DNA of 41,445 bases from Escherichia coli. GTDB lineage: Bacteria > Pseudomonadota > Gammaproteobacteria > Enterobacterales > Enterobacteriaceae. Made by a program: the position numbers and the translations under genes. Below are positions 1 to 27,850 of this stretch, piece by piece. The notes beneath the pieces are model-generated. The model had not been told where the DNA came from. It did not search any database and saw only the letters and a list, made by a program, of their open reading frames with translations. Positions within the stretch are counted from its first letter, which is position 1; each line of letters starts with the position of its first letter. Location of the stretch: assembly GCF_016903815.1 (NCBI RefSeq), contig NZ_CP069975.1, one strand, 5' to 3'.

Positions 1-127
1 GATCAATCCCGCGCCCATCATCCCAGCCACGGAATAAATTCACCGCGTAAATCAGGTAATTTATTGGTCGGGTAAGCCTTTGCCAGATTTGGGTACATTT
101 CAGAAGAAAATGCTGCACCATTGCATT

Positions 128-2626
128 TCAGCCACCCCGTTGGAGGTGTGGCTGAAGGGCCACGGAACAGGGACACCAACAGGTAAGTGCAGAGCCTTCT
201 CCCAAACCAAGGTAATTAAGAACGCTCTGAATACTGGGCTTACTAAGAATTGCACGTCCAACACTTGTCAGTGCAGTTAACGCGGCACGATCAACCCCTG
301 TGAAATAAGGGAGTTTATCTGCTGCGGTAGCTAGTGCCGCTAGAGCAGTGAGCGTAGCGTCTGCCGCTTGCTTTCCATTAGCCAAATCATATGCAGCCTT
401 GACAGCTTTCGGTGTAGCGGCCAGCACTTCAGACGTGCTGTTAGTGGCACTACTGAGCTGAGTGATGCCTTTCGCTGTCAATGAAGCTGTTGGCACACCA
501 GTGATCTGATTCCAGGGATGTGTATGACTGGATGGTGCCTTTCCGGCTGCTAGATCGTATGCAGCTTTAACTGCTTTTGGCGTTGCAGCTAATGTTTCAG
601 AAGTGCTGTTGGTGTCGCTACTGAGCTGAACTATCCCTTTTTGTGTCGTGGTTGCATCCTGGGCTGTATACTTCCCGTTAGCCAGGTCATATGCAGCCTT
701 GACAGCTTTCGGTGTGGCGGCCAGCACTTCAGACGTGCTGTTAGTGGCACTACTGAGCTGAGTGATGCCTTTCGCTGTCAATGAAGCTGTTGGCACACCA
801 GTGATCTGATTCCAGGGATGTGTATGACTGGATGGTGCCTTTCCGGCTGCTAGATCGTATGCAGCTTTAACCGCTTTTGGCGTTGCAGCTAATGTTTCAG
901 AAGTGCTGTTGGTGTCGCTACTGAGCTGAACTATCCCTTTTTGTGTCGTGGTTGCATCCTGGGCTGTATACTTCCCGTTAGCCAGGTCATATGCAGCCTT
1001 GACAGCTTTCGGTGTGGCGGCCAGCACTTCAGACGTGCTGTTAGTGGCACTACTGAGCTGAGTGATGCCTTTCGCTGTCAATGAAGCTGTTGGCACACCA
1101 GTAATCTGATTCCAGGGATGTGTATGACTGGATGGTGCTTTTTCGGCTGCTAGATCGTATGCAGCTTTAACCGCTTTTGGCGTTGCAGCTAATGTTTCAG
1201 AAGTGCTGTTGGTGTCGCTACTGAGCTGAACTATCCCTTTTTGTGTCGTGGTTGCATCCTGGGCTGTATACTTCCCGTTAGCCAGGTCATATGCAGCCTT
1301 GACAGCTTTCGGTGTGGCGGCCAGCACTTCAGACGTGCTGTTAGTGGCACTACTGAGCTGAGTGATGCCTTTCGCTGTCAATGAAGCTGTTGGCACACCA
1401 GTGATCTGATTCCAGGGATGTGTATGACTGGATGGTGCCTTTCCGGCTGCTAGATCGTATGCAGCTTTAACCGCTTTTGGCGTTGCAGCTAATGTTTCAG
1501 AAGTGCTGTTGGTGTCGCTACTGAGCTGAACTATCCCTTTTTGTGTCGTGGTTGCATCCTGGGCTGTATACTTCCCGTTAGCCAGGTCATATGCAGCCTT
1601 GACAGCTTTCGGTGTGGCGGCCAGCACTTCAGACGTGCTGTTAGTGGCACTACTGAGCTGAGTGATGCCTTTCGCTGTCAATGAAGCTGTTGGCACACCA
1701 GTGATCTGATTCCAGGGATGTGTATGACTGGATGGTGCCTTTCCGGCTGCTAGATCGTATGCAGCTTTAACCGCTTTTGGCGTTGCAGCTAATGTTTCAG
1801 AAGTGCTGTTGGTGTCGCTACTGAGCTGAACTATCCCTTTTTGTGTCGTGGTTGCATCCTGGGCTGTATACTTCCCGTTAGCCAGGTCATATGCAGCCTT
1901 GACAGCTTTCGGTGTGGCGGCCAGCACTTCGGACGTACTGTTAGTGGCACTACTGAGCTGAACTAATCCCTTTTGCGTTGTGCTTGCATCCTGCGCCGTA
2001 TACTTGCTTTTCGCCAGATCGTAGGCTTTTTTAACTGCCAGCGAACTCGCAGCAACATCACTTCTGGTACTGGTTACAGAGTCTGAAATATCAATGCCGA
2101 TCGTGCGGTTGATACGCTCGGATGTATCAATCATCTCTTGAGTAATGGTAGATACGCCAGCAGGGATATTCACCGTACAAACCAGCAGTTCCCCATCACC
2201 TAACTGATATGAATCGGTATAGGTTCTGGCAACAAATTCAGCTGCATGAATATGTGACGCGGTATTCACCTGATAGGTATCTTCTCCAAGAAGGTATCTT
2301 CCCTTCAGCACAATTGCATATTTCTTGCCTGCGTTAAGTGCAAGAGAGATATCCTTACGATGCTGAATAGTTACCTGGTAGAATTCACCAATATCCACTG
2401 ACGCCGCGCCAGCGGTTTTATCTCCATCCACTGAGGTGATTAACAGGTTCATCCCACCGCCAGGCTTAGGCAAGAAACCAGCATAAAATCCCGGGTCAAC
2501 AATTCCCCTGAATTTTCGGTTTAGAGCGGCTGACAGATATGGTTCGTGGTATTGCACATCAGCCACCAGAGCCAACGACTCGGGTGATGGGTAAGTAACC
2601 GATGTAACAACTGTAACGTCATTCAT
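128..2626 (-). CDS. S: Tail fibre protein (P1 S-like) with expanded tandem fibre repeats
   Basis: Long minus-strand ORF (track 128..2713). Start placed at ATG 2626-2624, preceded by AAGGA and 11 nt after the upstream gene stop. Product carries many copies of the tail-fibre repeat motif S-x-T-N-S-T-S-E-x-L-AATPKAVKAAYDLA. Position directly downstream of the baseplate/sit operon. Confidence 0.85.
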   Translation of the reverse strand: MNDVTVVTSVTYPSPESLALVADVQYHEPYLSAALNRKFRGIVDPGFYAGFLPKPGGGMNLLITSVDGDKTAGAASVDIGEFYQVTIQHRKDISLALNAGKKYAIVLKGRYLLGEDTYQVNTASHIHAAEFVARTYTDSYQLGDGELLVCTVNIPAGVSTITQEMIDTSERINRTIGIDISDSVTSTRSDVAASSLAVKKAYDLAKSKYTAQDASTTQKGLVQLSSATNSTSEVLAATPKAVKAAYDLANGKYTAQDATTTQKGIVQLSSDTNSTSETLAATPKAVKAAYDLAAGKAPSSHTHPWNQITGVPTASLTAKGITQLSSATNSTSEVLAATPKAVKAAYDLANGKYTAQDATTTQKGIVQLSSDTNSTSETLAATPKAVKAAYDLAAGKAPSSHTHPWNQITGVPTASLTAKGITQLSSATNSTSEVLAATPKAVKAAYDLANGKYTAQDATTTQKGIVQLSSDTNSTSETLAATPKAVKAAYDLAAEKAPSSHTHPWNQITGVPTASLTAKGITQLSSATNSTSEVLAATPKAVKAAYDLANGKYTAQDATTTQKGIVQLSSDTNSTSETLAATPKAVKAAYDLAAGKAPSSHTHPWNQITGVPTASLTAKGITQLSSATNSTSEVLAATPKAVKAAYDLANGKYTAQDATTTQKGIVQLSSDTNSTSETLAATPKAVKAAYDLAAGKAPSSHTHPWNQITGVPTASLTAKGITQLSSATNSTSEVLAATPKAVKAAYDLANGKQAADATLTALAALATAADKLPYFTGVDRAALTALTSVGRAILSKPSIQSVLNYLGLGEGSALTCWCPCSVALQPHLQRGG
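197..222. other. Candidate site-specific inversion crossover site (Hin/Gin/Cin family-like 26-bp imperfect dyad)
   Basis: TTCTCCCAAACCAAGGTAATTAAGAA has the core AAACCAAGGT and TTCT...AGAA ends resembling hix/gix/cix sites as I recall them (about 19/26 to hixL). It lies in-frame within the S gene (encodes VLNYLGLGEG), 21 codons before the stop. Confidence 0.35.
378..1975. repeat. Tandem array, about 5.3 copies of a 300-bp unit inside the tail-fibre gene
   Basis: ccagcacttcagacgtgctg recurs at 421, 721, 1021, 1321 and 1621 (variant at 1921). Copies differ by only a few SNPs (e.g. t/c at 571 vs 871, g/a near 1103). Each unit encodes 100 aa containing two fibre-repeat motifs. Confidence 0.95.
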
Positions 2627-2637
2627 CAAGCATATCC

Positions 2638-3072
2638 TTATGCTGTAGTCGAGTTTATGGCCATAACTGCGGTATATGTTTTGCCCACATACAGCGAGTC
2701 TTCCTGGACACAAATAATGGCGATTGGCTTATTCTCGTTATCCAGAACAACCAGAGTGTTGAATGGGTAGTTTTTCCCTTCCTGCAACTGACTTTGATCA
2801 AGGTCCATTCGGACAGTAATTATCCCGCCTGAGTAGGTTGGGACGAGGTTGATGGTGCAAAATTGACTGGTCAGTTCTGCCAGATCGAAAGCCTTTGGCA
2901 GTTCTCCAATCTCATAAGTGCCATCTCCTTTCTTAGTAACCAGTGAACTGGTACCGAAAACGGCCTTGCTGATTAAAAATCGAGAGCCTTTGTTAATGGA
3001 CGATTCAGCGCGCCGCTGATAGTAATAGTCCAACAACTGACTCTTATAGAGGTTTGTTGAGACGTCAGACAT
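2638..3072 (-). CDS. Tail fibre-associated protein (P1 R-like by position)
   Basis: 144-aa ORF immediately upstream of S on the same strand; ATG 3072 preceded by AGGGA. Assignment by synteny only. Confidence 0.6.
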   Translation of the reverse strand: MSDVSTNLYKSQLLDYYYQRRAESSINKGSRFLISKAVFGTSSLVTKKGDGTYEIGELPKAFDLAELTSQFCTINLVPTYSGGIITVRMDLDQSQLQEGKNYPFNTLVVLDNENKPIAIICVQEDSLYVGKTYTAVMAINSTTA

Positions 3073-3102
3073 GATTTTCCCTAATCAATGTTGTGAAGCC
3101 TC

Positions 3103-3147
3103 ATTGTAAGATAAGTAACTTGTCACCCCGCCCTGCGGACGGGGTGA
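3103..3147 (-). promoter_or_regulatory. Candidate late promoter (palindromic element + 6 bp + TACAAT) overlapping a GC hairpin, upstream of the R-S genes
   Basis: On the gene strand GTGACAAGTTAC (3126-3115), a 6-bp spacer, then TACAAT (3108-3103). Hairpin caccccg-N9-cggggtg at 3124-3147 immediately after the upstream gene stop. Same architecture recurs at 11666-11689, 23004-23028 and, more weakly, 30030-30054. Confidence 0.45.
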
Positions 3148-3150
3148 TTG

Positions 3151-3990
3151 TCACGCATCGCTATCCAACAGCAAATCATCTGCGCGGGTGCGATCAAACG
3201 TAGGCGTTGCTTTCACAATAGTGCCGCCCGGCGTTGCAGTGATCGGGGCGTTAATCGACGTAACTTCAGTAAGCGAAGTTGTATCCGAAGTTTCAAACCA
3301 GCAGAATGCTTTTTCGGTATCAGAAATCTCATTCAAAGTGATCATGTCGGCCTGTTCATTTACAACAACCGACAAATAGAGCGTAAGCCCATCAAACACT
3401 ATATGCAGTGGCAGTAGAGGCTTTACGAACTGATTAAACTTTCTGAGAATTTCTTCTGTAATTGCGGACTGATCTATCGTTCCAGTAATACCCATTGTCC
3501 GGGCCAGGTCGTTTATGGGAATACTGATCATTCCTCTGGAAGTCAGAAACATCTCGCCGAATGTGCCGCCGGTGGTTTCCAGTGTGCTTTCTGGAATCAG
3601 GACCGTGCCATAGGGATGACGTTCAAAGTCCACCGGAGCATATATTGGATCCCATAAAACCGATATACCGTTAAATTCGCGATAAATTGTCTGGTTTATA
3701 GGGCGTTCAGTACCCTTAAAATGGATCTCATCAAACCGCTGTTGTAACAACATCGGAACGGAAGATGAATTCGACGTTCTGATAGTAAAAAACTGGCCAA
3801 GTTCATTTGTCCTAGTCTCCAGATCCTCCTTGCTCATGGAGAAAATAGACTTCCGGTTGGTAATTCGCTCCAACCATGGGTCAACAAAGGTGTCCATCAT
3901 TGACTGAACCAAATCAGCCAATGATTTATAAAGTAATGACTTTTGCTTAGCTGATGTAAGCCGGTTATTAAACCAGGAACGCTGCATCAC
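3151..3990 (-). CDS. Baseplate/tail structural protein (P1 gene 16-like by position)
   Basis: 279-aa ORF; stop overlaps the downstream hairpin; start overlaps the upstream gene stop (ATGA-type coupling at 3987-3990). Confidence 0.6.
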   Translation of the reverse strand: MMQRSWFNNRLTSAKQKSLLYKSLADLVQSMMDTFVDPWLERITNRKSIFSMSKEDLETRTNELGQFFTIRTSNSSSVPMLLQQRFDEIHFKGTERPINQTIYREFNGISVLWDPIYAPVDFERHPYGTVLIPESTLETTGGTFGEMFLTSRGMISIPINDLARTMGITGTIDQSAITEEILRKFNQFVKPLLPLHIVFDGLTLYLSVVVNEQADMITLNEISDTEKAFCWFETSDTTSLTEVTSINAPITATPGGTIVKATPTFDRTRADDLLLDSDA

Positions 3991-5420
3991 TCCTCCTCAT
4001 ACGAAATATTAAAGGTGGAGTTTTCTGTATCCAGATAAACGAAATCGTAAAAGCCGTTGGACTCATTCCACTCGACAAATTCCAGATAAAAGTCGCGGAA
4101 ATAACCCAGCGTTTCGATAAATGCCCAAACGTCTTTTTTCTTGATTAGGATGTACTTGCCGACACGGTTCGGATCAAAGAAAGTTGAGTCACGCCCAAAT
4201 TTTGTTTCCAGTGCCGACTTCAGCTCATCAGTCACGTTCTCAATGGTCAGGCTTGCCGATATCCGCCCAGTGATAGTGATCTTAAAGGGGAGTTTTCTGA
4301 CCTCTTTATACGAGAATTTCTTGTTCAACTCATTCGGCACCTTCTTAAAGGCAGCCAGGATCACTTCTTCAAGCTCTGACTGGCTTTTGTTTGGATGCCA
4401 TCCTGAAATAAATATCTTATTGATATTCCGAACATTATAAGCACCATCTAATTTCTCTTGCTGGCCTTCGCCCCATGCCTTTACCCAGGACAGTCCCGGG
4501 ATGTTACGCACCAAAAAATACGTATAGTCCCCGCCCCATACGACCTGATCATCATAGGCAAGGTAATATTGTGCACGATTACGTGTGATCTCCGTTGTTT
4601 CGGCATCGGTACCTGCGGTTATGGGTGTCGTTGTCTTAACTGAAATCAAATTAGCTAAATTAGCCGCAGAATCGACAGGCGTCAGGTTTTGGCCAGCAAC
4701 CAGGGTTATATCTCCGTTGGTGCACCATACCTTAAGTGTAATGGTCGAGCCTTCTGGCGGTATTTGCCCAATTAGCCCATCACCGAATCGAACCCCCAAC
4801 TGCTCGGATGGCTTATAAAACTCAACGTAGACCTGGCTTTTACTACCGGCTAACCGGAACATAGTGCTGGAAGACCACTGCGTGGTCTTACCATCGGTCG
4901 TCACGAATACTTCCAGCTTATAGCAGACAGCAGTGAGAGCCTTTGATAACACGACTTCCAGAAATTCTTTGGCTGCCGTAACGGTATATGTCACCTCCTG
5001 GATTTCCAACTGTGCCACTTCTACCGTACCGGTGCCGTCAACCAACCTGCATACATCCATAGTCATGTAAGGGTACTGGTCGTCAGATATTAAAGGCATA
5101 TTTTTGGGGATTACCGCTGGGGCATCTTCACTTGTGGCGGTGATCTCAATCATCCCCGATGACGGTGTTGGCTTGGTACCAACGTAACTATTCGTTTCTG
5201 CCGCTGCCAGGATAGAGGAACGCCGCGTCGCGGTCGATATAAAGCCTTCAGCCAGCGCCGCATCGGCATACTGAAAGCACCTGTAGACAATCTGGGTAAT
5301 AAACAATGTCAGCATCGAGACAAATTGAGAGCCGACAAACTTCGACCAGAATGAATCTTTCTCGACAAGCTCTTCAAACTCTGCACGAATACTGTCTTTA
5401 GTCGGTGTTGTTTTACTCAT
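3987..5420 (-). CDS. Baseplate protein (P1 BplA-like by position)
   Basis: 477-aa ORF in tightly packed structural operon; 4-nt overlaps with both neighbours. Confidence 0.6.
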   Translation of the reverse strand: MSKTTPTKDSIRAEFEELVEKDSFWSKFVGSQFVSMLTLFITQIVYRCFQYADAALAEGFISTATRRSSILAAAETNSYVGTKPTPSSGMIEITATSEDAPAVIPKNMPLISDDQYPYMTMDVCRLVDGTGTVEVAQLEIQEVTYTVTAAKEFLEVVLSKALTAVCYKLEVFVTTDGKTTQWSSSTMFRLAGSKSQVYVEFYKPSEQLGVRFGDGLIGQIPPEGSTITLKVWCTNGDITLVAGQNLTPVDSAANLANLISVKTTTPITAGTDAETTEITRNRAQYYLAYDDQVVWGGDYTYFLVRNIPGLSWVKAWGEGQQEKLDGAYNVRNINKIFISGWHPNKSQSELEEVILAAFKKVPNELNKKFSYKEVRKLPFKITITGRISASLTIENVTDELKSALETKFGRDSTFFDPNRVGKYILIKKKDVWAFIETLGYFRDFYLEFVEWNESNGFYDFVYLDTENSTFNISYEEE

Positions 5421-5776
5421 AGCACCACGTCCTGTGTGATAGTTATATCCCTGATACGAATGGATATTTTCAACTTATCAAAAGCATCTCCCTCGGCTAC
5501 TGACAAGCCAGAAATCGGTATGTCAGGTAAATCTACCGTCAGTTTTTGCAACAGCATTGCCTCAACCGCAATTTGAACATGCGACAAGTTGGTCGGTTCG
5601 TGTTTAAACTGCGGTAAAACATTGCCCCATGACGGATCTCCGTATACCTCACCCTGATAAGTGTTTAGCCACTCATATAAACGAGCGCCCCAGGCCTCCT
5701 CCTGGGACTCATACGTTTTTACGCCGGATAACTCCAGCGTCAGTAAAGGATCAATTTCATTATTGTTGGCCATCAA
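5417..5776 (-). CDS. Small morphogenesis protein (P1 PmgA-like by position)
   Basis: 119-aa ORF, translationally coupled on both sides. Confidence 0.5.
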   Translation of the reverse strand: MMANNNEIDPLLTLELSGVKTYESQEEAWGARLYEWLNTYQGEVYGDPSWGNVLPQFKHEPTNLSHVQIAVEAMLLQKLTVDLPDIPISGLSVAEGDAFDKLKISIRIRDITITQDVVL

Positions 5777-8700
5777 TCAACTCTCGCGTAGTCATTCATC
5801 AACGGATCATCAATTGACAGTGGCACCGTGCGCATAACGCCCGGTTGAGGCGTGCTGACCTTTACGACAGTTCCCTGGCCTTTCGCCGAGTCTTTAGTGT
5901 GCTCTTCAATCCTGGCAAGCAATGAGGTCATCTGCGCAAACAGCCGCTTCGTTTCACCATCAAGTGAAACGGTATTATCAGCCAACTGCATTGTCGGCTT
6001 GGCACCGGAGCCGCCAAGGTCACTAATAACCTGTCCGTCTATCTGCATACGACCGGTTGGTTGCTGCAAATCGTTGGCGGCAGTCGTCACCTGGGACGTG
6101 GAGGCTGGTTCAGGCGCATTATTTTTCCGCATCCCCGGCGAGTTGCGGAGTTTATCAAATAGTCCATCAATCCCCATTTGTGCGCCGAGTTGGTCAAAGT
6201 AACTTGAGTTGCTGGCCACCGGACGCGCCTCTTCAACTGGCATCGGAGTATCAACATACACATTGCCAGCTGCTGTTGCGGTCCCCTTCCCTCGTGCACG
6301 TTCTTCGAGCGTTCCCTGAACGACTTCCCGACGCATACCCCGGCCATTCATGAATTTGTTGACCAGATCGTTAACGCCAACAGCATTGCCAATTTTGTCT
6401 ACCAGACCGCCTTTCTCAAACGGGCTATCACCAGGGGTAAACGCCAGGCCAGTAGACTGATCGATAACAGCGTTATCAGGCAGTGGTCCCCTCACTCCAT
6501 ATTGCGCCCCACCCTGTGCTCCTGCTCCAGGTGTATAGATTTCACCACCTAAATAGCGAGCACGATGAGTATTGACCTTGATCGCGTACTCACGGTTTTC
6601 TTTCGATAAGTCACCTGTGCCTTTTTTCCACTTATTGATAGTGCCAAACCCAGCATTATATGCAGTGATGGCCTCGTTTAAGTCTCCATTGGCTTGCTTC
6701 AGATATTTGCTCATGAGAAGAGCCGCAGCTTCTGCCGATTTCACAGGATCAAACGATTCACCTTCAGCTAAGCCAGTCTCTTCACGAGCAATCCCCGTGA
6801 ACTGAAACATCCCCAGAGCACCGGTTTGGGATTTTGCATACGGATTACCACCAGATTCAGTTGCAGCAATCGCGTAAAGAGTGCCTTCTGGAAGACCGTA
6901 TTTATTCTCTAGTTCGGCAAAATACGGAGCCAACTTATCGAGATTTGCCTTACCTTCAGCGCCAAGACTTCCGACTTTTACATCCAAGTTGCCATTGTTG
7001 TAGGTATCCGCAGCTTTCTGAATGTCATTCCTGGTGCCAGTGGTATTAAGCGACGATGATGACGAGCTATTTTGACCAATAGCTTTATCAATTTTCTGCA
7101 ACGCGCTATTGCCCGTTTCTACGGCATTTGCATTGATAATCTGATTAGCAGTTTCTTTAACTGTTTTATTGCTATCTTTCGCCGTATCTAGGGATGCATT
7201 TACAACACGAGTGACAATATTAGCCTTTTTAGGGGTATATTCAGTCTTAGGAGCATTGTCCTCCTGACTTTCTTTAGCTGGTGTTTTTAATTCAGGTGTA
7301 ACCTCTTTCGCATCCGCTTTGTTGACTAGCTTTGATGCAACCCAGGCCACAGGGGTGCTCTGAACAGCGGCATCTGCAACCTCACCTGAAAGCTCTTTTG
7401 CGGCACTCCATAGATTACTGCCAGCTTCTTTAATGTATTTCCCTGGGTTCTTAATGAAATCAATTGCACTATCAATTGCATCACTGAAAACCTGTTTCAG
7501 GTTATCGACAGTAAAGAAGTTTTTGATGGCGTCTAATTTTTCGTTCAGGTTCTTTGTTGTGTCACTGAACCATGCTGAAATAGCATCACCAATCTTTGCA
7601 GTATAATCACTAAATGTCGTGGATATAGTATCACCAAGGTTAGAAATATATGTTTCTAAATTGGTAATCCCACTATCAATGGCCTGGGCAATACTTTCCG
7701 TCGAAAATGATTGCAACATATTGCCGATATCCTCAAATCCAAGTGATTTGAGAACGCCGCCAATGGCACTGCTAATACCAGATACCAGTCCTCCCATATC
7801 GAGAACGTTAGCCAGTGTATAAGCCGCTTTTTGCTGAAAAGATGGATCTTCCCCATCCTTAAGCCCAAAGGTCCGACGTTGTGCTTCTGTATCATTCCAA
7901 CCGGTTACCGCATCATAGATACCTCCAGCCACCGTGCCGACTAGCGGAATTGCGCGTAAAGCCCCCTTTGCAAGAGCCTTAACACCTAGTTTCCCCAATC
8001 CCTTAGTTGCAAGTTTTCCGGCACCGCGAGTAGCCAATTCGCCAGCTTCTTTGGCAGCAGCTTTTTTCCCACCAAAGCCCAATAAGCTTGCAACTTTTTT
8101 TATACCTAAAGCGCCTAGTGCCATCGAGCCAACTTTCTTTAGTACCCCACGGCCAAAAATAAGGGAAGCAATACCACCGGCCCCCTTCCCTAACAGGCTA
8201 AATAGTTTGGACAGCAAGCCGCCCTTCTTTTTCCCGGTGTTTTTGGCTATCTGATCAAGGGCGCTGAGAATCTTGTCATTGCCCTCTTTAATTTCGCTGG
8301 TCTGCTCCTGAAGTTCCTGAACCGTCCGTTTTTGGGTGTTAACCTGAACGACATCGGCACTATTTTGCGATTTACGCCTAAAAAAACCTTTTCTACGGCT
8401 GTTATCGTCATTGCCACGAATCACATCGGCAATAGACTTTCTGGCACCATTAAGCGATCCACCAACTTCTTTTGATATCCCGCCAAGCTCCTTCCCTGCT
8501 GCCCACAATGGACCAGCAACGGCATAACCTAACGCATCGACGGCACGAGTCTCTGAAGGGTTACCTATGCCTTCAGCTACTTTTGACAGTTTTTTTAATA
8601 AACCTGATTCAGCATTTAGACGCTCATCATCCTCTTTGCGCCTGGCCTTTTCAGCACGTTCAGCACGGACATCTTCCGCTGCGGCCTTACTCCCTGACTT

Positions 8701-9468
8701 TCCAATAAAACGACCACGCGCATCGCGTTGGTTTTGGCTTTTTTGCGCACCGCCTTTTTGATCGAACATTTCGCGAGCGTGTTCGGCTGCTTCGGTCCGT
8801 TGTGCCTTTATATCCTCTGATATAGCCTTCCTGCGTCTTTTTTTACCCTTTGGTGTAGTTGATTTGGCCTGCTGTTCCTCTTGAGCAATGCCCTCCTGAA
8901 CTACACGAGAAACGTCCCCTAAATTAAGCCGTTTCATTGCGTCAACAATAGGGTCTACTGATGGCGCATTGGCCACAAAGTCTGGCCGGGAATTTTCGAT
9001 TGTTCGATTTAATGCCGACACACTGCGAGATACTGGGTCAACCGTTGCAACGCGTCCCCCTCTCAAATCACGAGCGAGTTTGACCGTTTCTAACCGCTGT
9101 GCTTTAACATCCTCTGTTATTGCCTCTCTTCGTCTATTTGGGGGATTGTGCGCTGTTGGTGCAACCTGCTGTTCACGGTTAGTGACTTTGTCCTCCCGTA
9201 TACGAGAAACGTCCCCTAAATTAAGCCGTTTCATTGCGTCAACAATAGGGTCTACTGATGGCGCATTGGCCACAAAGTCTGGCCGGGAATTTTCGATTGT
9301 GCGATTTAATGCCGACACACTGCGAGAGACAGGATCAACAGTTGCAACTCGTTCCCCTTTCAAATCTTCAACAGCTTCCCGAATACCTGCAAGCTCTTCC
9401 AGCTCTTTCGCGCTGGCGGTTTCAACTGTCCTTATAACATCGTCAATATTGGCGTTTTTTCTTTCCAT
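5773..9468 (-). CDS. sit: Sit-like structural injection transglycosylase / tape-measure-like protein with soluble lytic transglycosylase domain
   Basis: 1231-aa ORF. SLT-family motifs visible: AATESGGNPYA, GALGMFQF, AYNAG. Gly/Ala/Lys-rich helical repeats typical of tape-measure-like proteins. N-terminal region contains a ~100-aa internal duplication. Confidence 0.85.
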   Translation of the reverse strand: MERKNANIDDVIRTVETASAKELEELAGIREAVEDLKGERVATVDPVSRSVSALNRTIENSRPDFVANAPSVDPIVDAMKRLNLGDVSRIREDKVTNREQQVAPTAHNPPNRRREAITEDVKAQRLETVKLARDLRGGRVATVDPVSRSVSALNRTIENSRPDFVANAPSVDPIVDAMKRLNLGDVSRVVQEGIAQEEQQAKSTTPKGKKRRRKAISEDIKAQRTEAAEHAREMFDQKGGAQKSQNQRDARGRFIGKSGSKAAAEDVRAERAEKARRKEDDERLNAESGLLKKLSKVAEGIGNPSETRAVDALGYAVAGPLWAAGKELGGISKEVGGSLNGARKSIADVIRGNDDNSRRKGFFRRKSQNSADVVQVNTQKRTVQELQEQTSEIKEGNDKILSALDQIAKNTGKKKGGLLSKLFSLLGKGAGGIASLIFGRGVLKKVGSMALGALGIKKVASLLGFGGKKAAAKEAGELATRGAGKLATKGLGKLGVKALAKGALRAIPLVGTVAGGIYDAVTGWNDTEAQRRTFGLKDGEDPSFQQKAAYTLANVLDMGGLVSGISSAIGGVLKSLGFEDIGNMLQSFSTESIAQAIDSGITNLETYISNLGDTISTTFSDYTAKIGDAISAWFSDTTKNLNEKLDAIKNFFTVDNLKQVFSDAIDSAIDFIKNPGKYIKEAGSNLWSAAKELSGEVADAAVQSTPVAWVASKLVNKADAKEVTPELKTPAKESQEDNAPKTEYTPKKANIVTRVVNASLDTAKDSNKTVKETANQIINANAVETGNSALQKIDKAIGQNSSSSSSLNTTGTRNDIQKAADTYNNGNLDVKVGSLGAEGKANLDKLAPYFAELENKYGLPEGTLYAIAATESGGNPYAKSQTGALGMFQFTGIAREETGLAEGESFDPVKSAEAAALLMSKYLKQANGDLNEAITAYNAGFGTINKWKKGTGDLSKENREYAIKVNTHRARYLGGEIYTPGAGAQGGAQYGVRGPLPDNAVIDQSTGLAFTPGDSPFEKGGLVDKIGNAVGVNDLVNKFMNGRGMRREVVQGTLEERARGKGTATAAGNVYVDTPMPVEEARPVASNSSYFDQLGAQMGIDGLFDKLRNSPGMRKNNAPEPASTSQVTTAANDLQQPTGRMQIDGQVISDLGGSGAKPTMQLADNTVSLDGETKRLFAQMTSLLARIEEHTKDSAKGQGTVVKVSTPQPGVMRTVPLSIDDPLMNDYARVD
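8900..9370. repeat. Direct duplication (300-bp period) within the 5' part of sit
   Basis: About 170 bp at 8900-9070 is near-identical to 9200-9370 (cgtttcattgcgtcaacaatagggtctactgatggcgcattggccacaaagtctggccgggaattttcgattgt present in both). Protein repeat RVATVDPVSRSVSALNRTIENSRPDFVANAPSVDPIVDAMKRLNLGDVSR occurs twice. Confidence 0.9.
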
Positions 9469-9549
9469 GATCTTATCGCCTACCGTTTCGGTTTAAGTTT
9501 TTCTTCCAGTTTCTCCAACAGGAAAAACGCATAGGATTCAGTAAGCCTT

Positions 9550-10431
9550 TCAGCGTCCTGAATCGGTATACCCCCATACAAAACCAGGTTGGACACTAAG
9601 GTCTGATAGCTTTTCAATCCCCACCTGTGGAATGAAGTCGGTAGCCCGAAAGGGCACCCACAGACGGGTATACGCACCCTCTGTGGACTCCTTTGTATCC
9701 TGGTTTGGGCATTTGTGCGGCGGGAGACGAAGACGCATTTCGCCTTTATCGATGTAGCACGGTAAACCATGTTCGAGCTTTTCATGAGCCAGCCGGATGT
9801 GTGCCGCCAGCTTCATAAATTCAGTATCAATGGCCATCCGTTTGATCGTTTCATAACGACGCTCAGCCTGCTCTTCACGAGTACCGCTAACATCGTTATA
9901 AAGTTCACACTGATAAGCGAATTCCCAAAAACGCAAATCAACGATCGCTTCTTTGAATTCCGCGTCGTCTTCAGGTGGCAATGCTGCTCGGCGCATCTCC
10001 AGCATTTCCATTGCCCAACCATCAAGCGGCACGATACGCCATTGATAAGGCACGCCCTCTACAGACACCTCAATATCGTCAATGAACGGTTCCACTTCCA
10101 GGACCTGGATATCTTCAGCCAGAGCATTCATATCGCAATCGTAATAATGCTCTTTACCGCAATGTTTACAGGTGTAGGTAAATGTCTCGATCGGTGTTTC
10201 GCGGGAGCCAGTAAATATCCACCATAACGCGGTAATCCGGTCCTGTGCCGTCCATTTCAGTGGATCATGTTTCGCAGCTTCAGCCAGCAAGGCTTTTAAA
10301 TACGCTGTTGTCTGCTGTTCTTGTTCCTCCGGTGTTATCGAGTTGAAACGCATCGCATCAGCAATATTTGGCTGACGGAACTGGATTAATTCAGTTGGCC
10401 GCGATGGTAGCGGGAAAAGGGGTAAAAGCAT
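9550..10431 (-). CDS. Structural/morphogenesis protein (P1 PmgB-like by position); Cys cluster CKHCGKEHYYDCD
   Basis: 293-aa ORF between sit and the tube-like gene; possible zinc-binding cysteines. Confidence 0.55.
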   Translation of the reverse strand: MLLPLFPLPSRPTELIQFRQPNIADAMRFNSITPEEQEQQTTAYLKALLAEAAKHDPLKWTAQDRITALWWIFTGSRETPIETFTYTCKHCGKEHYYDCDMNALAEDIQVLEVEPFIDDIEVSVEGVPYQWRIVPLDGWAMEMLEMRRAALPPEDDAEFKEAIVDLRFWEFAYQCELYNDVSGTREEQAERRYETIKRMAIDTEFMKLAAHIRLAHEKLEHGLPCYIDKGEMRLRLPPHKCPNQDTKESTEGAYTRLWVPFRATDFIPQVGIEKLSDLSVQPGFVWGYTDSGR

Positions 10432-10445
10432 CCTTGCTCCTTAAT

Positions 10446-11057
10446 TTAAAGCGAAAAACTAAAGCCCAGAAGGGAAGCTAAAGAACTTGAGGATTGGTTA
10501 AACGTGCTGTGCAACGCGAAGGTCATTGGGAATGACTTAAATTCCGTAACCTGATCCCGCGCATAGGTGACATCGCCGGTAGTGACCGGGAATACCGTCA
10601 TCTCATTTTCCAGTTTGGTTAAACCGGAGGACAGCAACCGATAAATACGCACATTGAGCAAATATTTAGACGGTATATTCCCGGTACCGTCCGGATTGAT
10701 CACCCGACTTTTTGCCGTCTTAAACCAGTCCAAAACGAGGCCATCAACGGTATCCCTGACCATCATTGTTATCTGCCCAGGCGAACGCTCCGTTGGCTGA
10801 AGGATATTCCCTCCGCCGATTTTAATCGTTTCATATTCGATGCTGTAATCGTGGTAGGTAATGTCTTTAGCAAAGAAGTCTGCCCCCTCCAGACCATCAA
10901 CTTCGACAGAGAACTGCCATCCTTGCGCGAACAGCATTTTGTTCATGATGATTGACGTCAGCTTACCAACTTCCCGCTCACCAACGCCGGAGCCAAATAA
11001 TGTCGTCGTTAATGCCGAAGATACATAAGACTTTACTGAAGCAACATTAAGCCCCAT
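10446..11057 (-). CDS. Tail tube-region structural protein (P1 Tub-like by position)
   Basis: 203-aa ORF; synteny only. Confidence 0.5.
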   Translation of the reverse strand: MGLNVASVKSYVSSALTTTLFGSGVGEREVGKLTSIIMNKMLFAQGWQFSVEVDGLEGADFFAKDITYHDYSIEYETIKIGGGNILQPTERSPGQITMMVRDTVDGLVLDWFKTAKSRVINPDGTGNIPSKYLLNVRIYRLLSSGLTKLENEMTVFPVTTGDVTYARDQVTEFKSFPMTFALHSTFNQSSSSLASLLGFSFSL

Positions 11058-11067
11058 ATCAGCCCCC

Positions 11068-11689
<622 letters not shown>

Positions 11690-11692
11690 AGG

Positions 11693-12169
11693 TCATTTTG
11701 CGCGCTTCAGGCAGCCATCTTCAGGTGCCGCGTTGAAAAGCTCTGCGGCCTTACGTAGCGTAAATGTTGCGATTTTTTTTCCGTCTACGTATGCATCGAA
11801 TGTTTTAACTTCCATATCAGGGGTATCTGACCAAAAACCATACCAGTAACTATCACCCACAGAGGAACCGATAGAACTGATAGGATATTCATCATCACCA
11901 ACTTTCAGCGTTATTTGTTCTTTTTTAGCATCAAATGACTCACCGCCAGGTTCTGTTTTCATGAGAGTGAGTAGTCGTGTTCCTACTTGATTGGGATCCG
12001 TATTATTAAATCCAACATCGCACTCAAATGTAAGCGTATAATTATCTTTGCTGGAAACAGCATAAGAACGAACACCATGAGTCTCGCCGGTTGACCATTT
12101 GCTTACATTTGCCATTGATGAAAACGGAGTAAGCAAAGCAAGAACTAGTAAAAATCGTTTGATGCGCAT
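11693..12169 (-). CDS. Secreted protein with N-terminal signal peptide (sim-region gene)
   Basis: 158-aa ORF; N-terminus MRIKRFLLVLALLTPFSSMA is a typical Sec signal peptide. Confidence 0.6.
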   Translation of the reverse strand: MRIKRFLLVLALLTPFSSMANVSKWSTGETHGVRSYAVSSKDNYTLTFECDVGFNNTDPNQVGTRLLTLMKTEPGGESFDAKKEQITLKVGDDEYPISSIGSSVGDSYWYGFWSDTPDMEVKTFDAYVDGKKIATFTLRKAAELFNAAPEDGCLKRAK

Positions 12170-12220
12170 TAATTTATCTCCTTTGGATATTAATATTTTA
12201 ATTAGTTAACCACCATATAT

Positions 12221-12868
12221 TCACCATTCATAGGGTAAATTAAGCGCTTTTAAACCTTGCTGGAAAGTATTAAGAGATCCGTTTTTTTGTTGTTCCATTT
12301 TTTCGCGTGCAGCTTTCTCATACTGCTCCATCCGTTGGTTATACTCTTGCAATTCCTCCGGGGAGAGGTTTCCCATTGGGGAGTTTGTACCCGGCCCCCT
12401 GGCTCGTTCTTCAAGCGTACCCTGTACGTTTTGATGGCGCATTCCTGGGGCATTTCTTATTGAGTCAATGCCATTTCTTCCAACATCTTCTTTATTAACG
12501 GCATTGCTCGCCACCAGCACACCCCAGCTAGGGATAGCAAAATCAGGAGCGGTTTCGCATGCCTTTACCATATAATCGAAAGTGCTTCGATTGATCTCGT
12601 TTGCGTCGGGATTTAACAGGCTAGAATATTGATATTTAGCATTTTCGTTGGTTGCGACTTTATACAGTTCTTGCTGCACCATCGCTTCAGAAAGTTTAAG
12701 GCGTTTCATATCTGACAGTAACTTCTTGCGCATGGATTCGTCTTGACTGACAGCAAAGCCGTAAACGTGCCCAAGGTATTTCGTATAATCGGTACAAATC
12801 TCCTTTACGCTTGATGCTGCATTAACAGTCCCAGCCATAAATAATAACGGTAGTAATAGTTTTCTCAT
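12221..12868 (-). CDS. Sim-like superinfection-exclusion periplasmic protein (signal peptide; shares a segment with Sit)
   Basis: ORF track 12221..12895; start placed at ATG 12868 (GGTGAGG RBS) giving signal peptide MRKLLLPLLFMAGTVNAAS. Mature part contains NAPGMRHQNVQGTLEERARGPGT, matching Sit residues GRGMRREVVQGTLEERARGKGT. Location between the tube-region genes and the immI-like region matches P1 sim. Confidence 0.6.
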   Translation of the reverse strand: MRKLLLPLLFMAGTVNAASSVKEICTDYTKYLGHVYGFAVSQDESMRKKLLSDMKRLKLSEAMVQQELYKVATNENAKYQYSSLLNPDANEINRSTFDYMVKACETAPDFAIPSWGVLVASNAVNKEDVGRNGIDSIRNAPGMRHQNVQGTLEERARGPGTNSPMGNLSPEELQEYNQRMEQYEKAAREKMEQQKNGSLNTFQQGLKALNLPYEW

Positions 12869-12964
12869 TATAACCTCACCTGCCTTATAACTCATTTAGG
12901 GTACATATTTTCGCCTTTAAAAAAAAGAGGTTATTAGATCCAATTGTGTATTTATTAAGCATGC

Positions 12965-12981
12965 AATGCTCTAATAAATTT
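12965..12981 (+). promoter_or_regulatory. C1-repressor operator-like 17-mer overlapping the -35 of the immI-like promoter
   Basis: AATGCTCTAATAAATTT is 16/17 to the P1 C1 operator consensus ATTGCTCTAATAAATTT as I recall it. ATGCTC, 17 bp, TAAGTC forms a plausible -35/-10. Confidence 0.6.
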
Positions 12982-13139
12982 GTATTTTTAAGTCGCGAAT
13001 GCTATCTTTTCGCATCATATTGACCTTTTAATCGTTCAGGCTTATAGTTCCGCCGTCGTAGCAAATTCTGCGACCGGGTTTAGCAGCCTGAATACTTACG
13101 CGGACAACCGCAGATTTCCGATATTGCGGTATTTTTGTG

Positions 13140-13240
13140 TCCGTAAACCACGTTACGCCCGAATTATGGTGGGGCGTGATGGGGAGGCTTCGGCCTGCTG
13201 GTTTCGTAAGTGCCAGTCTGCTAACCCCGTCACGTCCTGC
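13140..13240 (+). ncRNA. c4: c4-like antisense RNA region (immunity I), approximate boundaries
   Basis: Non-coding stretch between the operator and icd. Contains CTGCTAACC (13218-13226), complementary to the GTTTAGCAG elements at 13079-13087 and 13246-13254 in the icd leader. Boundaries are not determinable by eye. Confidence 0.4.
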
Positions 13241-13293
13241 CACCTGTTTAGCAGCGGGTCGCAGGTTGTTTATCAACTTACGAGGCCGTAACT

Positions 13294-13515
13294 ATGGTTA
13301 ATGCCAATCCTTGCGCACGCCAAGAATTCATCTGGCGTTTCTATTCCTGTAAAAAACACCACTATCACTTCGTTATCGCAGCAACAGAAGACGAAGCACG
13401 CTCTCAATTGCCTGATGGCCCCTGCATTTTTACTGCCCGTTTTTCAACTAACTCGCGCAATTCACTTAGTTACTGGAGCCTCCCCTTCTCTGCCGACGTT
13501 CAGGGGGGTTTATGA
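13294..13515 (+). CDS. icd: Icd-like small protein (interference with cell division), translationally coupled to ant
   Basis: 73-aa ORF; GAGG RBS 7 nt upstream; stop TGA overlaps the ant ATG (ATGA at 13512-13515). Confidence 0.6.
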   Translation: MVNANPCARQEFIWRFYSCKKHHYHFVIAATEDEARSQLPDGPCIFTARFSTNSRNSLSYWSLPFSADVQGGL

Positions 13516-14546
13516 AAACACCTCTCGTCACCCGTAATGAAATAGCCGAAGCGATCGCCTTGCATACTGCCTGTATGCCGACACGGGAGATCCCCGGCGC
13601 AATTGCTAACTATTTCATGATAACCAGACGTTTTTATACCCGAACAGATAAGGCTGTGATCAACAGGCTACTGATAGCCGAGATCAGGGATTATTTGATT
13701 GAACAAGGACGTCTACGTTACGCAACAGTGGCAGCAGAAATGAGAAAGGAGGCACATAGAATGACCGGTAATAATTTAAATGTTGAAAAACCAGCACCTG
13801 TTGCTTCAGCTACGCCAGCACCAGCCCTGAATGTCATCTCCAACACCGGAGACACAATCGACAGCCAAACATTGTTGAAGATGGTCAATGAGGCACGGAA
13901 ATTATGTAGCGAAAAACCAGTTCGCAACAATGATTTCATTGCCAGAGTTAAGGATGAGCTTGAAGGAGAAACCTACGAAATTTTCGTAGGTCAAAAAAAC
14001 GGCGCAGAAATAGATATTATAACCATGACCTACAAACAAGCCCTGCGAGTTGCCGCGCGCGAGTCAAAAGCGGTCCGCCGTTCGCTGATCGACAAACTGG
14101 AAGAATTACAGCAGGCAAACTCCCCTACCCCATCGATCCCCCAGACATTACCAGAAGCCCTACGCCTGGCTGCCGAGTTAGCAGAACAGAAAATGCAGTT
14201 GGAACAACAGCTGGTGGCCGCAGCCCCTAAAGTCGATTTTGCCGACCGGGTATCAGTGGCCAATGGAATCCTGATCGGGAACTTTGCAAAGGTCGTTGGA
14301 CTTAAGCAAAACGCCCTTTTCTCATGGTTGCGCCAGAATGGCATTCTCATGGCTTTTGGAGCGCGCAAAAACGTACCGCGCCAACAGTACATCAACGCCG
14401 GGTATTTCACGGTGAAAGAAGTGGTGCTGGATGATGAAAATGGCTACCAGATACGGCTGACGCCCCAATTAACGGGTAAAGGCCAGCAGTGGTTAACTCG
14501 CAAGCTACTTGATGCTGGTTTGTTAAAACCAGTAGCAATAGGTTAA
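13512..14546 (+). CDS. ant: Antirepressor Ant with C-terminal KilAC-type domain
   Basis: 344-aa ORF; C-terminal ~130 aa (LPEALRLAAELAEQK...GKGQQWL) is about 65% identical to the C-terminus of the downstream KilA-like protein. Confidence 0.7.
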   Translation: MKTPLVTRNEIAEAIALHTACMPTREIPGAIANYFMITRRFYTRTDKAVINRLLIAEIRDYLIEQGRLRYATVAAEMRKEAHRMTGNNLNVEKPAPVASATPAPALNVISNTGDTIDSQTLLKMVNEARKLCSEKPVRNNDFIARVKDELEGETYEIFVGQKNGAEIDIITMTYKQALRVAARESKAVRRSLIDKLEELQQANSPTPSIPQTLPEALRLAAELAEQKMQLEQQLVAAAPKVDFADRVSVANGILIGNFAKVVGLKQNALFSWLRQNGILMAFGARKNVPRQQYINAGYFTVKEVVLDDENGYQIRLTPQLTGKGQQWLTRKLLDAGLLKPVAIG

Positions 14547-26665: not shown

Positions 26666-27550
26666 TTATGGATTGCGCTTATGGATCTGGAAGCCGATTT
26701 TCCTGCCGTTTTTTATCTCTGAAAATTTAAGATATTCAATAGCTTCCAAATCTTTCATGGCTTTTCTGATAACGCTATTTTGCACGCTAACGGATGATTT
26801 GAGATTAAGCCTCGCTCTAAGGCGCTCAATGCTGACAGGTGCCGGGTTGGCGGGTAGAGCCTCAAAGAATGTATACAGTACCTTGGCCGTCTCTTTGCGC
26901 CCTAGTTTATCCAGCATCTTCAGCTTCAGGATTCGCTTATAGTCAACATAGTAAAGTTCAGATAGCTGTTTCTGCGGCTGGATCTCGATAACATCAAGCT
27001 CGGTATTCAGGCTGCTATATGCCAACAAGTTGACGTTAATGTTATTGAGATGACCTTTTGCCGCCGGGAAGCGGAATTTGACAACTGTCTGCTGAATGCG
27101 TGTCAGAGAGTCATCAATACTTTTACGGAACGCCTTTGAAAGGCGCTTACGTGGATAGCCGCATCGATCGGCAAACTCGGAGAATGGCAGGGTGATTATG
27201 CCGTCATCATCAGGTGCGTAGTCAAACAACGCGGAGGTTATGCCCACCCACACCTTAAAATCAGTATCCATATCCAGGCGTGGACCATGAATTTCAATTC
27301 CCTCATAGCCTTCCTGCTCAACAATTTTGAGGCTTGATAGTTCTTCAGTTGCGTTCGTTGTGTTTGTTGTAACTGACGATCCGCGACGTAGCGCCACATT
27401 GGTAGATTTTAAGGTTGGCACAAACACACCTAAGCGCAACAAAGCGATGGGTTGTATAGTGCTGTTGTTATTGGGCTTCAGGCTGTGGATTTCTCCTGTA
27501 TTTCCTGCAACTTCTTCAACGCTAAGGAAGCCTTTACTTTCTTCCGGCAT
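26666..27550 (-). CDS. repA: Iteron-binding plasmid replication initiator RepA
   Basis: ORF track 26666..27586 starts at TTG; start placed at ATG 27550 with GGAGAAA RBS. Flanked by iteron arrays on both sides. Confidence 0.8.
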   Translation of the reverse strand: MPEESKGFLSVEEVAGNTGEIHSLKPNNNSTIQPIALLRLGVFVPTLKSTNVALRRGSSVTTNTTNATEELSSLKIVEQEGYEGIEIHGPRLDMDTDFKVWVGITSALFDYAPDDDGIITLPFSEFADRCGYPRKRLSKAFRKSIDDSLTRIQQTVVKFRFPAAKGHLNNINVNLLAYSSLNTELDVIEIQPQKQLSELYYVDYKRILKLKMLDKLGRKETAKVLYTFFEALPANPAPVSIERLRARLNLKSSVSVQNSVIRKAMKDLEAIEYLKFSEIKNGRKIGFQIHKRNP

Positions 27551-27589
27551 CACGGTTTCTCCATGTGTGGCGCGGCCTGACGTCAATTT

Positions 27590-27850
27590 GGATGGCTGTT
27601 ATCAACAGCTGTGAATATTCAGACTCTAAAATCGCTTACAGTCAATGTTTCTGTCGCGTATAGTCAACAATAAATCGCGTGCAGTCAACAATAAATCGTG
27701 CACAGTCAACATAAAATCGCGTATAGTCAATGTTGATCCCATTTCAGGCCAGTAATGACGCGGCTTACAGCGATCCGGGATCTTCTTTGGATCTTCCTAG
27801 GTTCTCTTTAGGATCTGTTTATTGGATCTATGCTGTGGATAAGTTGAATA
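27590..27850. promoter_or_regulatory. Plasmid origin oriR / incC: five iterons, GATC cluster, DnaA boxes
   Basis: Five direct iterons TCGCGTATAGTCAA-type at 27625-27735. Six GATC sites within 95 bp (27735, 27772, 27779, 27790, 27812, 27825). DnaA box TGTGGATAA at 27834-27842 and TTATCAACA-like box near 27612. Confidence 0.8.

What the first reader, a model, noticed from the sequence alone, without database searches (positions are those of the whole stretch)
197..222. Invertase crossover-like site inside the 3' end of the tail-fibre gene; very short C-terminal segment beyond it
A 26-bp imperfect dyad resembling Hin/Gin/Cin crossover sites lies in-frame only 21 codons before the S stop. If real, the window begins inside an invertible (possibly multi-segment, Min/shufflon-like) region and the current orientation attaches an unusually short variable C-terminus; the alternative orientation would fuse a different receptor-binding end. 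A short ORF continuing to the window edge on the minus strand (about 118 to 1) may be the next gene.
Basis: partly seen in the sequence, partly recalled or inferred. Interest (0 to 1): 0.5.

Follow-up and report, generated by a model that had tools for sequence, protein, structure and literature searches.

The report
Known Min-type tail-fibre inversion site
The 26-bp sequence is a genuine but already well-known DNA-invertase crossover site, where a P1-like plasmid-phage swaps the receptor-binding tip of its tail fibre; the "very short tip" after it is almost certainly a sequence-assembly artefact.

Summary
The site at 197-222 (TTCTCCCAAACC-AA-GGTAATTAAGAA) is real. It sits in frame at the constant/variable junction of tail-fibre gene S of a P1-like plasmid-prophage. 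It is 20/26 identical to P1 cixR at the same position.

The window ends 196 bp past the site, so it holds no partner site and no invertase. A sister plasmid identical to window 188-11277 has five partner sites and a serine invertase (74% identical to Cin) within 3.5 kb. This is the p15B "Min" layout: six sites, 240 isomers, six alternative fibre tips. Two isolates of one E. coli strain carry this region permuted, with breakpoints exactly at the site centres.

The "short C-terminus" is not biological. Window 1-196 is a base-by-base blend of two known cassettes. Three extra bases (31/32, 157-159, 187) each place both alleles of a cassette polymorphism side by side. Removing them reopens the frame into a normal tail-collar domain. 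The best reading is a consensus built from mixed isomers at a contig end. The "next gene" ORF is the same cassette read out of frame.

Verdict: already known; low interest.

The parts
197..222 (-). 26-bp crossover site of the Min/Cin type at the Sc/Sv junction. The Sv-side half-site is TTCTCCCAAACC (197-208), the central dinucleotide is AA (209-210) and the Sc-side half-site is GGTAATTAAGAA (211-222). It is read in frame as LNYLGLGE on the minus strand.
   Evidence: It is 20/26 identical to P1 cixR. The identical site is in sister plasmids, and rearrangement breakpoints fall at its centre. It fits the published 26-bp consensus and resembles EC958 Phi2_5prime (PMC4134206 Table 3).
223..2626 (-). 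Constant part (Sc) of tail-fibre gene S. The start codon ATG is at 2626-2624 (MNDVTVV...).
   Evidence: ORF. It is identical to NZ_CP173465.1 S. Window 1938-3100 is 97% identical to P1/P7 Sc and R. Pfam finds Phage_fiber_2 repeats in the sister protein.
371..1961 (-). 300-bp tandem repeat, 5.3 copies, inside Sc. It encodes the 100-aa units of Phage_fiber_2 repeats.
1..196 (-). First 196 bases of a variable (Sv) cassette: the tail-collar domain start, ...GSALPVGVPVPWPSATPPTGWLKCNGAAFSSEMYPNLAKAYPTNKLPDLRGEFIRGWDDGRGID after correction. As written, it is a blend of cassette A and cassette B of sister plasmids, with three extra bases.
   Evidence: The Collar domain PF07484 lies at the equivalent place in the sister protein.
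187..187 (.). Extra base 1 (coding strand GCA[C]TTACC). Both alleles of an A/B polymorphism sit side by side. This base throws S out of frame.
157..159 (.). Extra base 2: one G of the GGG run (coding strand GTGGCC[C]TTCAG), at an A/B polymorphism.
31..32 (.). Extra base 3: one G of the GG pair (coding strand ATT[C]CGTGG), at an A/B polymorphism.
128..130 (-). Apparent stop codon of S. It is reached only because of the frame shifts, so it is not the biological end of the protein.
2638..3072 (-). Gene R, the tail-fibre gene upstream of S in the same late operon.
   Evidence: P1 annotation.
3103..3121 (-). Late promoter LPs of the R-S operon, assigned by identity to the annotated P1 promoter.
   Evidence: 80 of 81 bases identical across the region.

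Best explanation
Window 197-222 is the expressed-position crossover site of a p15B/Min-type multiple DNA-inversion system in a P1-like (Punavirus) plasmid-prophage.

Mechanism. Steps marked 'family knowledge' are established for Hin/Gin/Cin and are not shown here.
- A serine DNA invertase is encoded a few kb beyond the window edge.
- It pairs this site with any partner site lying in inverted orientation.
- It cuts both at the central AA/TT dinucleotide and exchanges the half-sites (family knowledge).
- This inverts the DNA in between.
- The Sc-side half-site GGTAATTAAGAA stays with the constant 5' part of S. The Sv-side half-site travels with a short cassette of about 147-172 codons encoding a tail-collar receptor-binding tip.
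- Six sites allow 240 arrangements and six alternative tips. A lysogen population therefore yields phage with different host ranges.

The 22-codon tail seen in the window is not a product of this system. The terminal 196 bases are a consensus of at least two isomers (Sc joined to cassette A and Sc joined to cassette B) present in the sequenced DNA. They were written at a contig end that stops where the cassettes cease to be alike. Three doubled polymorphic bases break the frame.
For: Shown in the window:
- The site exists and is unique.
- It lies in frame at the junction of S.
- It is 20/26 identical to P1 cixR at the orthologous position.

Shown in relatives:
- NZ_CP173465.1 has no difference from window 188 to 11277.
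- It carries five more sites, TTCCCC(C/T)AAACC AA CGTTTT..., all inverted relative to the Sc site.
- A 190-aa recombinase lies next to them. It is 74% identical to Cin.
- The region also holds one tail-fibre assembly gene and head-to-tail cassettes.
- Two isolates of E. coli strain 405 carry 96,237-bp plasmids in which all seven pieces of this region match exactly. Their order and orientation differ, with breakpoints at site centres and the polymorphic TTCT/TTCC half-site swapped.
- A model of the layout gives 240 isomers. The two isolates are at least four inversions apart.
- Four different cassettes are joined to the same Sc half-site in different records.

Artefact part:
- All 10 differences from the sister plasmid in the first 11.3 kb fall in window 1-187.
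- All 7 substitutions carry the cassette-B allele and are interleaved with A alleles.
- Each of the 3 insertions places the A and B alleles of a polymorphism side by side.
- Removing them restores the frame.
- No E. coli genome or plasmid record exceeds 95% identity over window 1-200.
- The exact 30-mer over the insertion at 187 is absent from the viral, genome and metagenome contig collections.
- Window base 1 falls where the cassettes diverge.
- Other public assemblies show indels, duplications or orphan contigs in this same region. Forde et al. report the same for invertible tail-fibre regions (PMC4134206).
Against: - The window's own invertase and partner sites are not visible. tblastn for the invertase finds nothing in the window, and there is no second site. 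Activity in this particular element is therefore inferred, not shown.
- No reads are available, so the mixed-isomer origin of the blend is an inference from its pattern.
- Natural mosaic cassettes do exist in relatives. The substitutions alone could therefore be real.
- p15B's own sequence (X62121) is not in the searchable collections and was not compared directly.
- It is not proven that window base 1 is a contig end.
Confidence: 0.88

Rival explanations
1. The three extra bases are real. The cassette now joined to Sc would be a decayed pseudo-cassette, so this isomer makes a truncated S protein without a receptor-binding tip: an 'off' state of the fibre.
For: - The sequence as given does encode a stop 22 codons after the site.
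- The rest of the window is clean, with no difference from the sister plasmid over 11 kb. General sequencing noise is therefore low.
- The three insertions sum to +3.
Against: - Each insertion duplicates a T/C polymorphism between two known cassettes, with both alleles adjacent. Mutation does not predict this.
- None of about 1,165 homologous places in 555 E. coli records has them.
- The 30-mer over the insertion at 187 is found in no public collection.
- The differences sit in the last 187 bases before the window edge.
- A sum of +3 is expected in about 1 of 4 cases for three random one-base indels.
Confidence: 0.06
2. The site is genuine, but in this particular element it is a fossil. The invertase would be lost or inactive and the orientation frozen. 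The A/B blend would be a real hybrid cassette made by homologous recombination between cassettes, plus a few sequencing indels.
For: - Natural hybrid cassettes occur in relatives.
- P1-like plasmids with truncated or rearranged invertase genes are described (PMC6906374).
- The window itself shows no invertase.
Against: - A and B alleles alternate every few bases (window 69 A, 66 B, 57 B, 54 A, 45 B, 39 B, 36 B, 33 A, 17 B, 1 A). This fits a vote between two templates better than one or two recombination events.
- The indels are allele doublings.
- The nearest sister plasmids have an intact recombinase gene and do rearrange.
Confidence: 0.08
3. The 26-mer is a chance resemblance to invertase sites and has no recombination function.
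For: - The dyad symmetry is only 7/12, which is common (644 such 26-mers in the window).
- One of 200 shuffles also reached 20/26 identity to cixR.
Against: - It lies at the orthologous position to cixR.
- The same site is found in hundreds of plasmids.
- Rearrangement breakpoints and half-site exchange fall exactly at it.
Confidence: 0.01

Closest known systems
Min multiple DNA-inversion system of plasmid p15B of E. coli 15T- (Sandmeier, Iida, Arber et al. 1990-1992; Iida et al. 1990)
   Same: - It is in a P1-related plasmid-prophage.
- A constant 5' part of the tail-fibre gene, containing repeats, joins to one of several short 3' cassettes at 26-bp sites.
- There are six sites, one tail-fibre assembly gene, and a serine invertase beside the region with the lyd genes beyond it.
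- There are 240 isomers: for the model, my recollection for p15B.
- P1/P7-like plasmids with a region 99% identical to p15B min, and with an invertase 98.5% identical to Min, are published (PMC5786510; PMC6906374).
   Different: Nothing of substance was found. The p15B sequence itself could not be aligned here. The number of 300-bp repeats in Sc varies among relatives. The window contains only the Sc-side site.
Cin / C-segment of phage P1 (cixL, cixR)
   Same: - The genome backbone and the R-S late operon are the same.
- The site is at the same Sc/Sv junction and is 20/26 identical to cixR.
- The sister invertase is 74% identical to Cin.
- The central dinucleotide is the same, AA.
   Different: - P1 has two sites and one 4.2-kb segment with two long Sv parts and two U genes.
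- Here there are six sites and short cassettes.
- The invertase gene is transcribed away from the region instead of ending at cixL.
- Sc downstream of window 1938 is unrelated to P1.
Gin/G-segment of Mu, Hin/hix of Salmonella, Pin/e14 and invertible tail-fibre regions of E. coli prophages (e.g. EC958 Phi2)
   Same: - The site architecture is the same 26 bp. EC958 Phi2_5prime, TCCTCAATTACCTT GGTTTAGGAGAA, closely resembles the coding strand here, TTCTTAATTACCTT GGTTTGGGAGAA (PMC4134206 Table 3).
- The variable part starts with a tail-collar domain in both.
- An extended inverted repeat of about 200 bp follows the site.
   Different: Those are two-site, single-segment switches.
R64 shufflon (Rci)
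   Same: It is also a multi-segment inversion cluster that swaps C-terminal ends of one protein.
   Different: The shufflon uses a tyrosine recombinase and different sites (my knowledge). The recombinase here is a serine recombinase of the Cin family.

Membership tests
Din-family (Hin/Gin/Cin/Pin/Min) invertase crossover site | A 26-bp site made of two imperfectly symmetric 12-bp half-sites around a 2-bp core, fitting the family consensus | tested here: met
   The site reads TTCTCCCAAACC AA GGTAATTAAGAA, with 7/12 symmetry. It is 20/26 identical to cixR. It compares well with the consensus and sites in PMC4134206 Table 3.
Din-family (Hin/Gin/Cin/Pin/Min) invertase crossover site | The site lies in frame at the junction of the constant and variable parts of a tail-fibre gene | tested here: met
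   The Collar domain begins about 12 codons after the site in the sister protein.
Din-family (Hin/Gin/Cin/Pin/Min) invertase crossover site | Partner site(s) in inverted orientation with the same central dinucleotide | not testable with these tools
   No partner is present in the 41,445-base window, but the window ends 196 bp into the invertible region. The feature is met in sister plasmids: five inverted partners, all with an AA core.
Din-family (Hin/Gin/Cin/Pin/Min) invertase crossover site | A serine invertase gene adjacent to the invertible region | not testable with these tools
   It is absent from the window (tblastn), and the expected place lies beyond the window edge. It is present in sister plasmids: 190 aa, 74% identical to P1 Cin, with serine-recombinase family hits.
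Din-family (Hin/Gin/Cin/Pin/Min) invertase crossover site | A recombinational enhancer (Fis-bound) inside the 5' part of the invertase gene | tested here: inconclusive
   The 5' end of the sister invertase gene aligns with the annotated P1 cin enhancer region. This is coding homology and does not show enhancer function.
Din-family (Hin/Gin/Cin/Pin/Min) invertase crossover site | Inversion actually occurs at the site | tested here: met
   This is met for sister plasmids. Two isolates of strain 405 differ only by permuted and inverted segments, with breakpoints at site centres and exchanged half-sites. For the window's own source the evidence is only indirect, namely the blend of two cassettes.
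Min multiple-inversion system (p15B type) | Six crossover sites bounding overlapping invertible segments, several short 3' cassettes and one assembly gene | tested here: met
   This is met in the sister plasmid that is identical to window 188-11277. In the window itself only the first site and 196 bases of one cassette are visible.
Min multiple-inversion system (p15B type) | Sequence identity to the p15B min region (X62121) | not tested
   The record is not in the searchable collections. There is indirect support: the P1 record annotates p15B homology for R/S and lyd on both sides of the region, and the literature reports 99% identity for similar plasmids.
R64-type shufflon | Tyrosine recombinase Rci acting on sfx sites | tested here: not met
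   The recombinase in sister plasmids is a serine recombinase of the Cin family. The system works like a shufflon but is not one.

The most novel reading that the evidence does not exclude
The three extra bases are real, and the multi-inversion system includes a frameshifted cassette. Attaching it to Sc would give a tip-less tail fibre, a programmed or tolerated 'off' state among the isomers.
Probability: 0.05. Interest if true: 0.3.

Novelty: already known. Interest (0 to 1): 0.12.

Why it matters
Biologically this adds nothing new. Min-type tail-fibre switching in p15B and P1-like plasmids has been known since 1990. The same region is present in hundreds of sequenced E. coli, Klebsiella and Salmonella plasmids.

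The practical value is for annotation:
- The truncated S gene and the small ORF at the window edge should not be taken as a variant fibre or a new gene.
- The doubled-allele pattern is a usable fingerprint of a consensus built across a population of inversion isomers.
- The same cause explains frameshifted "tail protein" fragments and the 2-5 kb orphan "plasmids" made only of cassettes that sit in public databases.

Tried and rejected
- Partner sites in the window. Searching the full 26-mer with 3 mismatches, and the AAACCAAGGT core with 1 mismatch, found only chance-level core matches.
- An invertase in the window. tblastn found none; the best hit had E = 4.7.
- The window's source record. 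No phage, plasmid or complete E. coli record exceeds 95% identity over window 1-200. The exact 30-mer over the insertion at 187 is absent from the viral, genome and metagenome contig collections. A control pattern with the uninserted cassette A joined to Sc also found nothing in the viral contigs. A cassette-independent Sc-side pattern found three viral contigs.
- A cloned Sau3AI insert, considered because the window starts with GATC and is 41 kb long. Rejected: the other end is not GATC.
- Dyad symmetry as evidence. Rejected as uninformative.
- The primary p15B papers (PMC53420, PMC206102, PMC329034) and Johnson 2015. None is held, so details about p15B rest on secondary citations and on my memory.
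- NCBIfam gave no named family for the cassette, the assembly protein or R.
Full report
**What the window is.**
- The first 3.1 kb match P1-like phages and plasmids.
- On the minus strand lie the P1 late promoter LPs (3103-3121; 80 of 81 bases across the region identical to P1), gene R (2638-3072) and tail-fibre gene S.
- S starts at 2626 and has an apparent stop at 128-130.
- Downstream in the window are typical P1 genes: gene 16, bplA, pmgA, sit and others.
- From window 1938 rightwards S is 97% identical to P1/P7 Sc. To the left it is not P1-like, but it matches hundreds of roughly 96-kb E. coli, Klebsiella and Salmonella plasmids.
- The constant part contains a 300-bp tandem repeat, 5.3 copies at 371-1961. 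It encodes Phage_fiber_2 repeats.

**The observation.**
- TTCTCCCAAACCAAGGTAATTAAGAA is at 197-222 and occurs once in the window.
- On the coding strand it is read as LNYLGLGE.
- Its internal symmetry is only 7/12, which 1.6% of all 26-mers in the window reach. Symmetry is therefore no argument.
- The argument is homology. P1 cixR, annotated at the Sc/Sv junction, reads TTCTCTTAAACCAAGGTATTGGATAA. That is 20/26 identical, with the same AAACC-AA-GGT core. It is the best match to cixR in the window, where shuffles reach a mean maximum of 17.1.
- The site also fits the published family consensus. It closely resembles a crossover site of an E. coli EC958 prophage (PMC4134206 Table 3).

**What lies beyond the window edge, seen in relatives.**
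- Plasmid NZ_CP173465.1 aligns with window 1-11686 at 99.9% identity. It has no difference at all between window 188 and 11277.
- In it the site is followed by a 170-codon variable part, then a tail-fibre assembly gene on the other strand, and then five further short cassettes.
- Each of those cassettes is preceded by TTCCCC(C/T)AAACC AA CGTTTT... in the orientation opposite to the Sc site.
- Next comes a 190-codon recombinase gene, then the lyd genes.
- The recombinase is 74% identical to P1 Cin and hits serine-recombinase families.
- Each cassette runs 147-172 codons. It begins with a Phage Tail Collar domain and ends ...RPRNIAFNYIVRAA. Its TAA stop lies inside the outer half-site of the next crossover site.
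- This is the organisation reported for the Min region of p15B, as cited in PMC6109161, PMC5786510 and PMC6906374. The figures of six sites and 240 isomers for p15B are from my memory.

**Evidence that the site works.**
- Two isolates of E. coli strain 405, from body fluid and from a wound, carry 96,237-bp plasmids.
- I cut the 8-kb locus of one isolate at the centres of its six sites. All seven pieces were found exactly in the other isolate, but in the order Sc, -2, -3, -4, +1, 5 instead of Sc, 1, 2, 3, 4, 5.
- The polymorphic Sv-side half-site (TTCT... versus TTCC...) has changed partners, while the Sc-side half GGTAATTAAGAA stayed with Sc. Exchange therefore occurred within CCCAAACCAA, consistent with the central dinucleotide.
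- A simple model of the end types of the segments gives 240 reachable isomers and six alternative C-termini. It puts the two isolates four inversions apart.
- Across eight clean records, four different cassettes are found fused to the same Sc half-site.

**The 'very short C-terminus'.**
- Against the sister plasmid, every difference in the first 11.3 kb falls in window 1-187: seven substitutions and three single-base insertions.
- Aligning the window with all cassettes shows the insertions are unique to the window.
- I compared the window with cassette A (fused to Sc in NZ_CP173465.1 and in one strain-405 isolate) and cassette B (fused to Sc in the other isolate).
- All seven substitutions carry the B allele and are interleaved with A alleles every few bases.
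- Each insertion sits at a T/C difference between A and B and writes both alleles one after the other: GCA[C]TTACC, GTGGCC[C]TTCAG and ATT[C]CGTGG on the coding strand.
- Deleting the three bases reopens the S frame to the window edge. The product is 71/72 identical to the sister protein.
- No record among the complete E. coli genomes or the plasmids exceeds 95% identity over window 1-200.
- The 30-mer across the insertion at 187 occurs in no viral, genome or metagenome contig collection.
- Window base 1 is one base past the point where cassettes A and B stop being alike.

**Inference from the pattern.**
- I infer that the window starts at a contig end. Its last 196 bases would be a consensus of reads from at least two inversion isomers.
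- This inference is not proven, because no reads are available.
- The same region is visibly mis-assembled in other public records. There are frameshifts and internal duplications in ON470615.2 and NZ_CP195222.1. There is an orphan 2,021-bp 'plasmid' made only of cassettes.
- Forde et al. describe the same behaviour for invertible tail-fibre regions.

**Mechanism.**
- Shown: the site, its position and reading frame in the window.
- Shown in near-identical plasmids: the partner sites, the invertase gene, the cassettes, and rearrangement at the sites.
- From established knowledge of Hin/Gin/Cin: the serine recombinase binds the 12-bp half-sites as a dimer, synapses two inverted sites with the help of Fis and an enhancer in the invertase gene, cuts with a 2-bp stagger at the core, and rotates and religates. 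None of this was tested here. The enhancer comparison is uninformative.
- Inferred: the window's own element has the same complete system and was switching in the sequenced culture.

**Comparison and novelty.**
- This is the Min/p15B type of the Cin family, not a new variant.
- It differs from P1 Cin by six sites instead of two, by short cassettes, and by the orientation of the invertase gene.
- It works like a shufflon but is not one, because the recombinase is a serine enzyme.
- Nothing seen departs from what is published. Interest is low.
- The only unexcluded unusual reading is a real frameshifted 'off' cassette. I rate it at about 5%.

Noticed in passing
window 371-1961: There is a 300-bp tandem repeat (5.3 copies, 98% matches) inside the constant part of S, encoding pairs of Phage_fiber_2 repeats. 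Related plasmids match the same 2-kb query over shorter stretches, for example about 1.4 kb in NZ_CP058881.1. The copy number, and presumably the fibre length, therefore varies between relatives.
   Followed up: partly
L012 (NZ_CP142924.1, whole 2,021-bp record); also NZ_JBQJRM010000005.1, NZ_JBQJRT010000008.1, NZ_CP027129.1 listed: RefSeq holds tiny 'plasmids' of 2-5 kb that consist only of Min cassettes and the tail-fibre assembly gene. They look like leftover contigs of alternative inversion isomers deposited as replicons.
   Followed up: partly
L003 2734-4640; L006 4807-6711: The TAA stop codon of each silent cassette (...IVRAA*) lies inside the outer half-site (GCATAAAAACG) of the next crossover site. 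Cassette ends and recombination sites are therefore fused.
   Followed up: yes
L001 10185-10649 (ON470615.2) and L004 2924-6220 (NZ_CP195222.1): Other public assemblies carry indels, an internal duplication (PVPWPSATPP twice) and chimeric cassettes in this same region. The invertase of ON470615.2 is annotated as two fragments, 'Hin1' and 'Hin2'. These are probably assembly or consensus errors in a heterogeneous region.
   Followed up: partly
window 34445-34598 and 36226-36301: There are three tRNA genes. ARAGORN calls them Asn(GTT), Thr(TGT) and Met(CAT). The RefSeq annotation of the sister plasmid calls the CAT one tRNA-Ile.
   Followed up: no
window 27654-27730: A 21-bp repeat (3.7 copies) lies next to an ORF at 26666-27586. 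That ORF corresponds to the RepB-family replication initiator of the sister plasmid. The repeats are probably the iterons of the P1-type plasmid replicon.
   Followed up: no
window 11687-14135: This is the only stretch in the first 32 kb that did not align by megablast with NZ_CP173465.1. That plasmid carries IS200C copies, a DUF4760 gene and antirepressor genes there. The region appears to be the variable sim/immunity region of P1-like elements.
   Followed up: no
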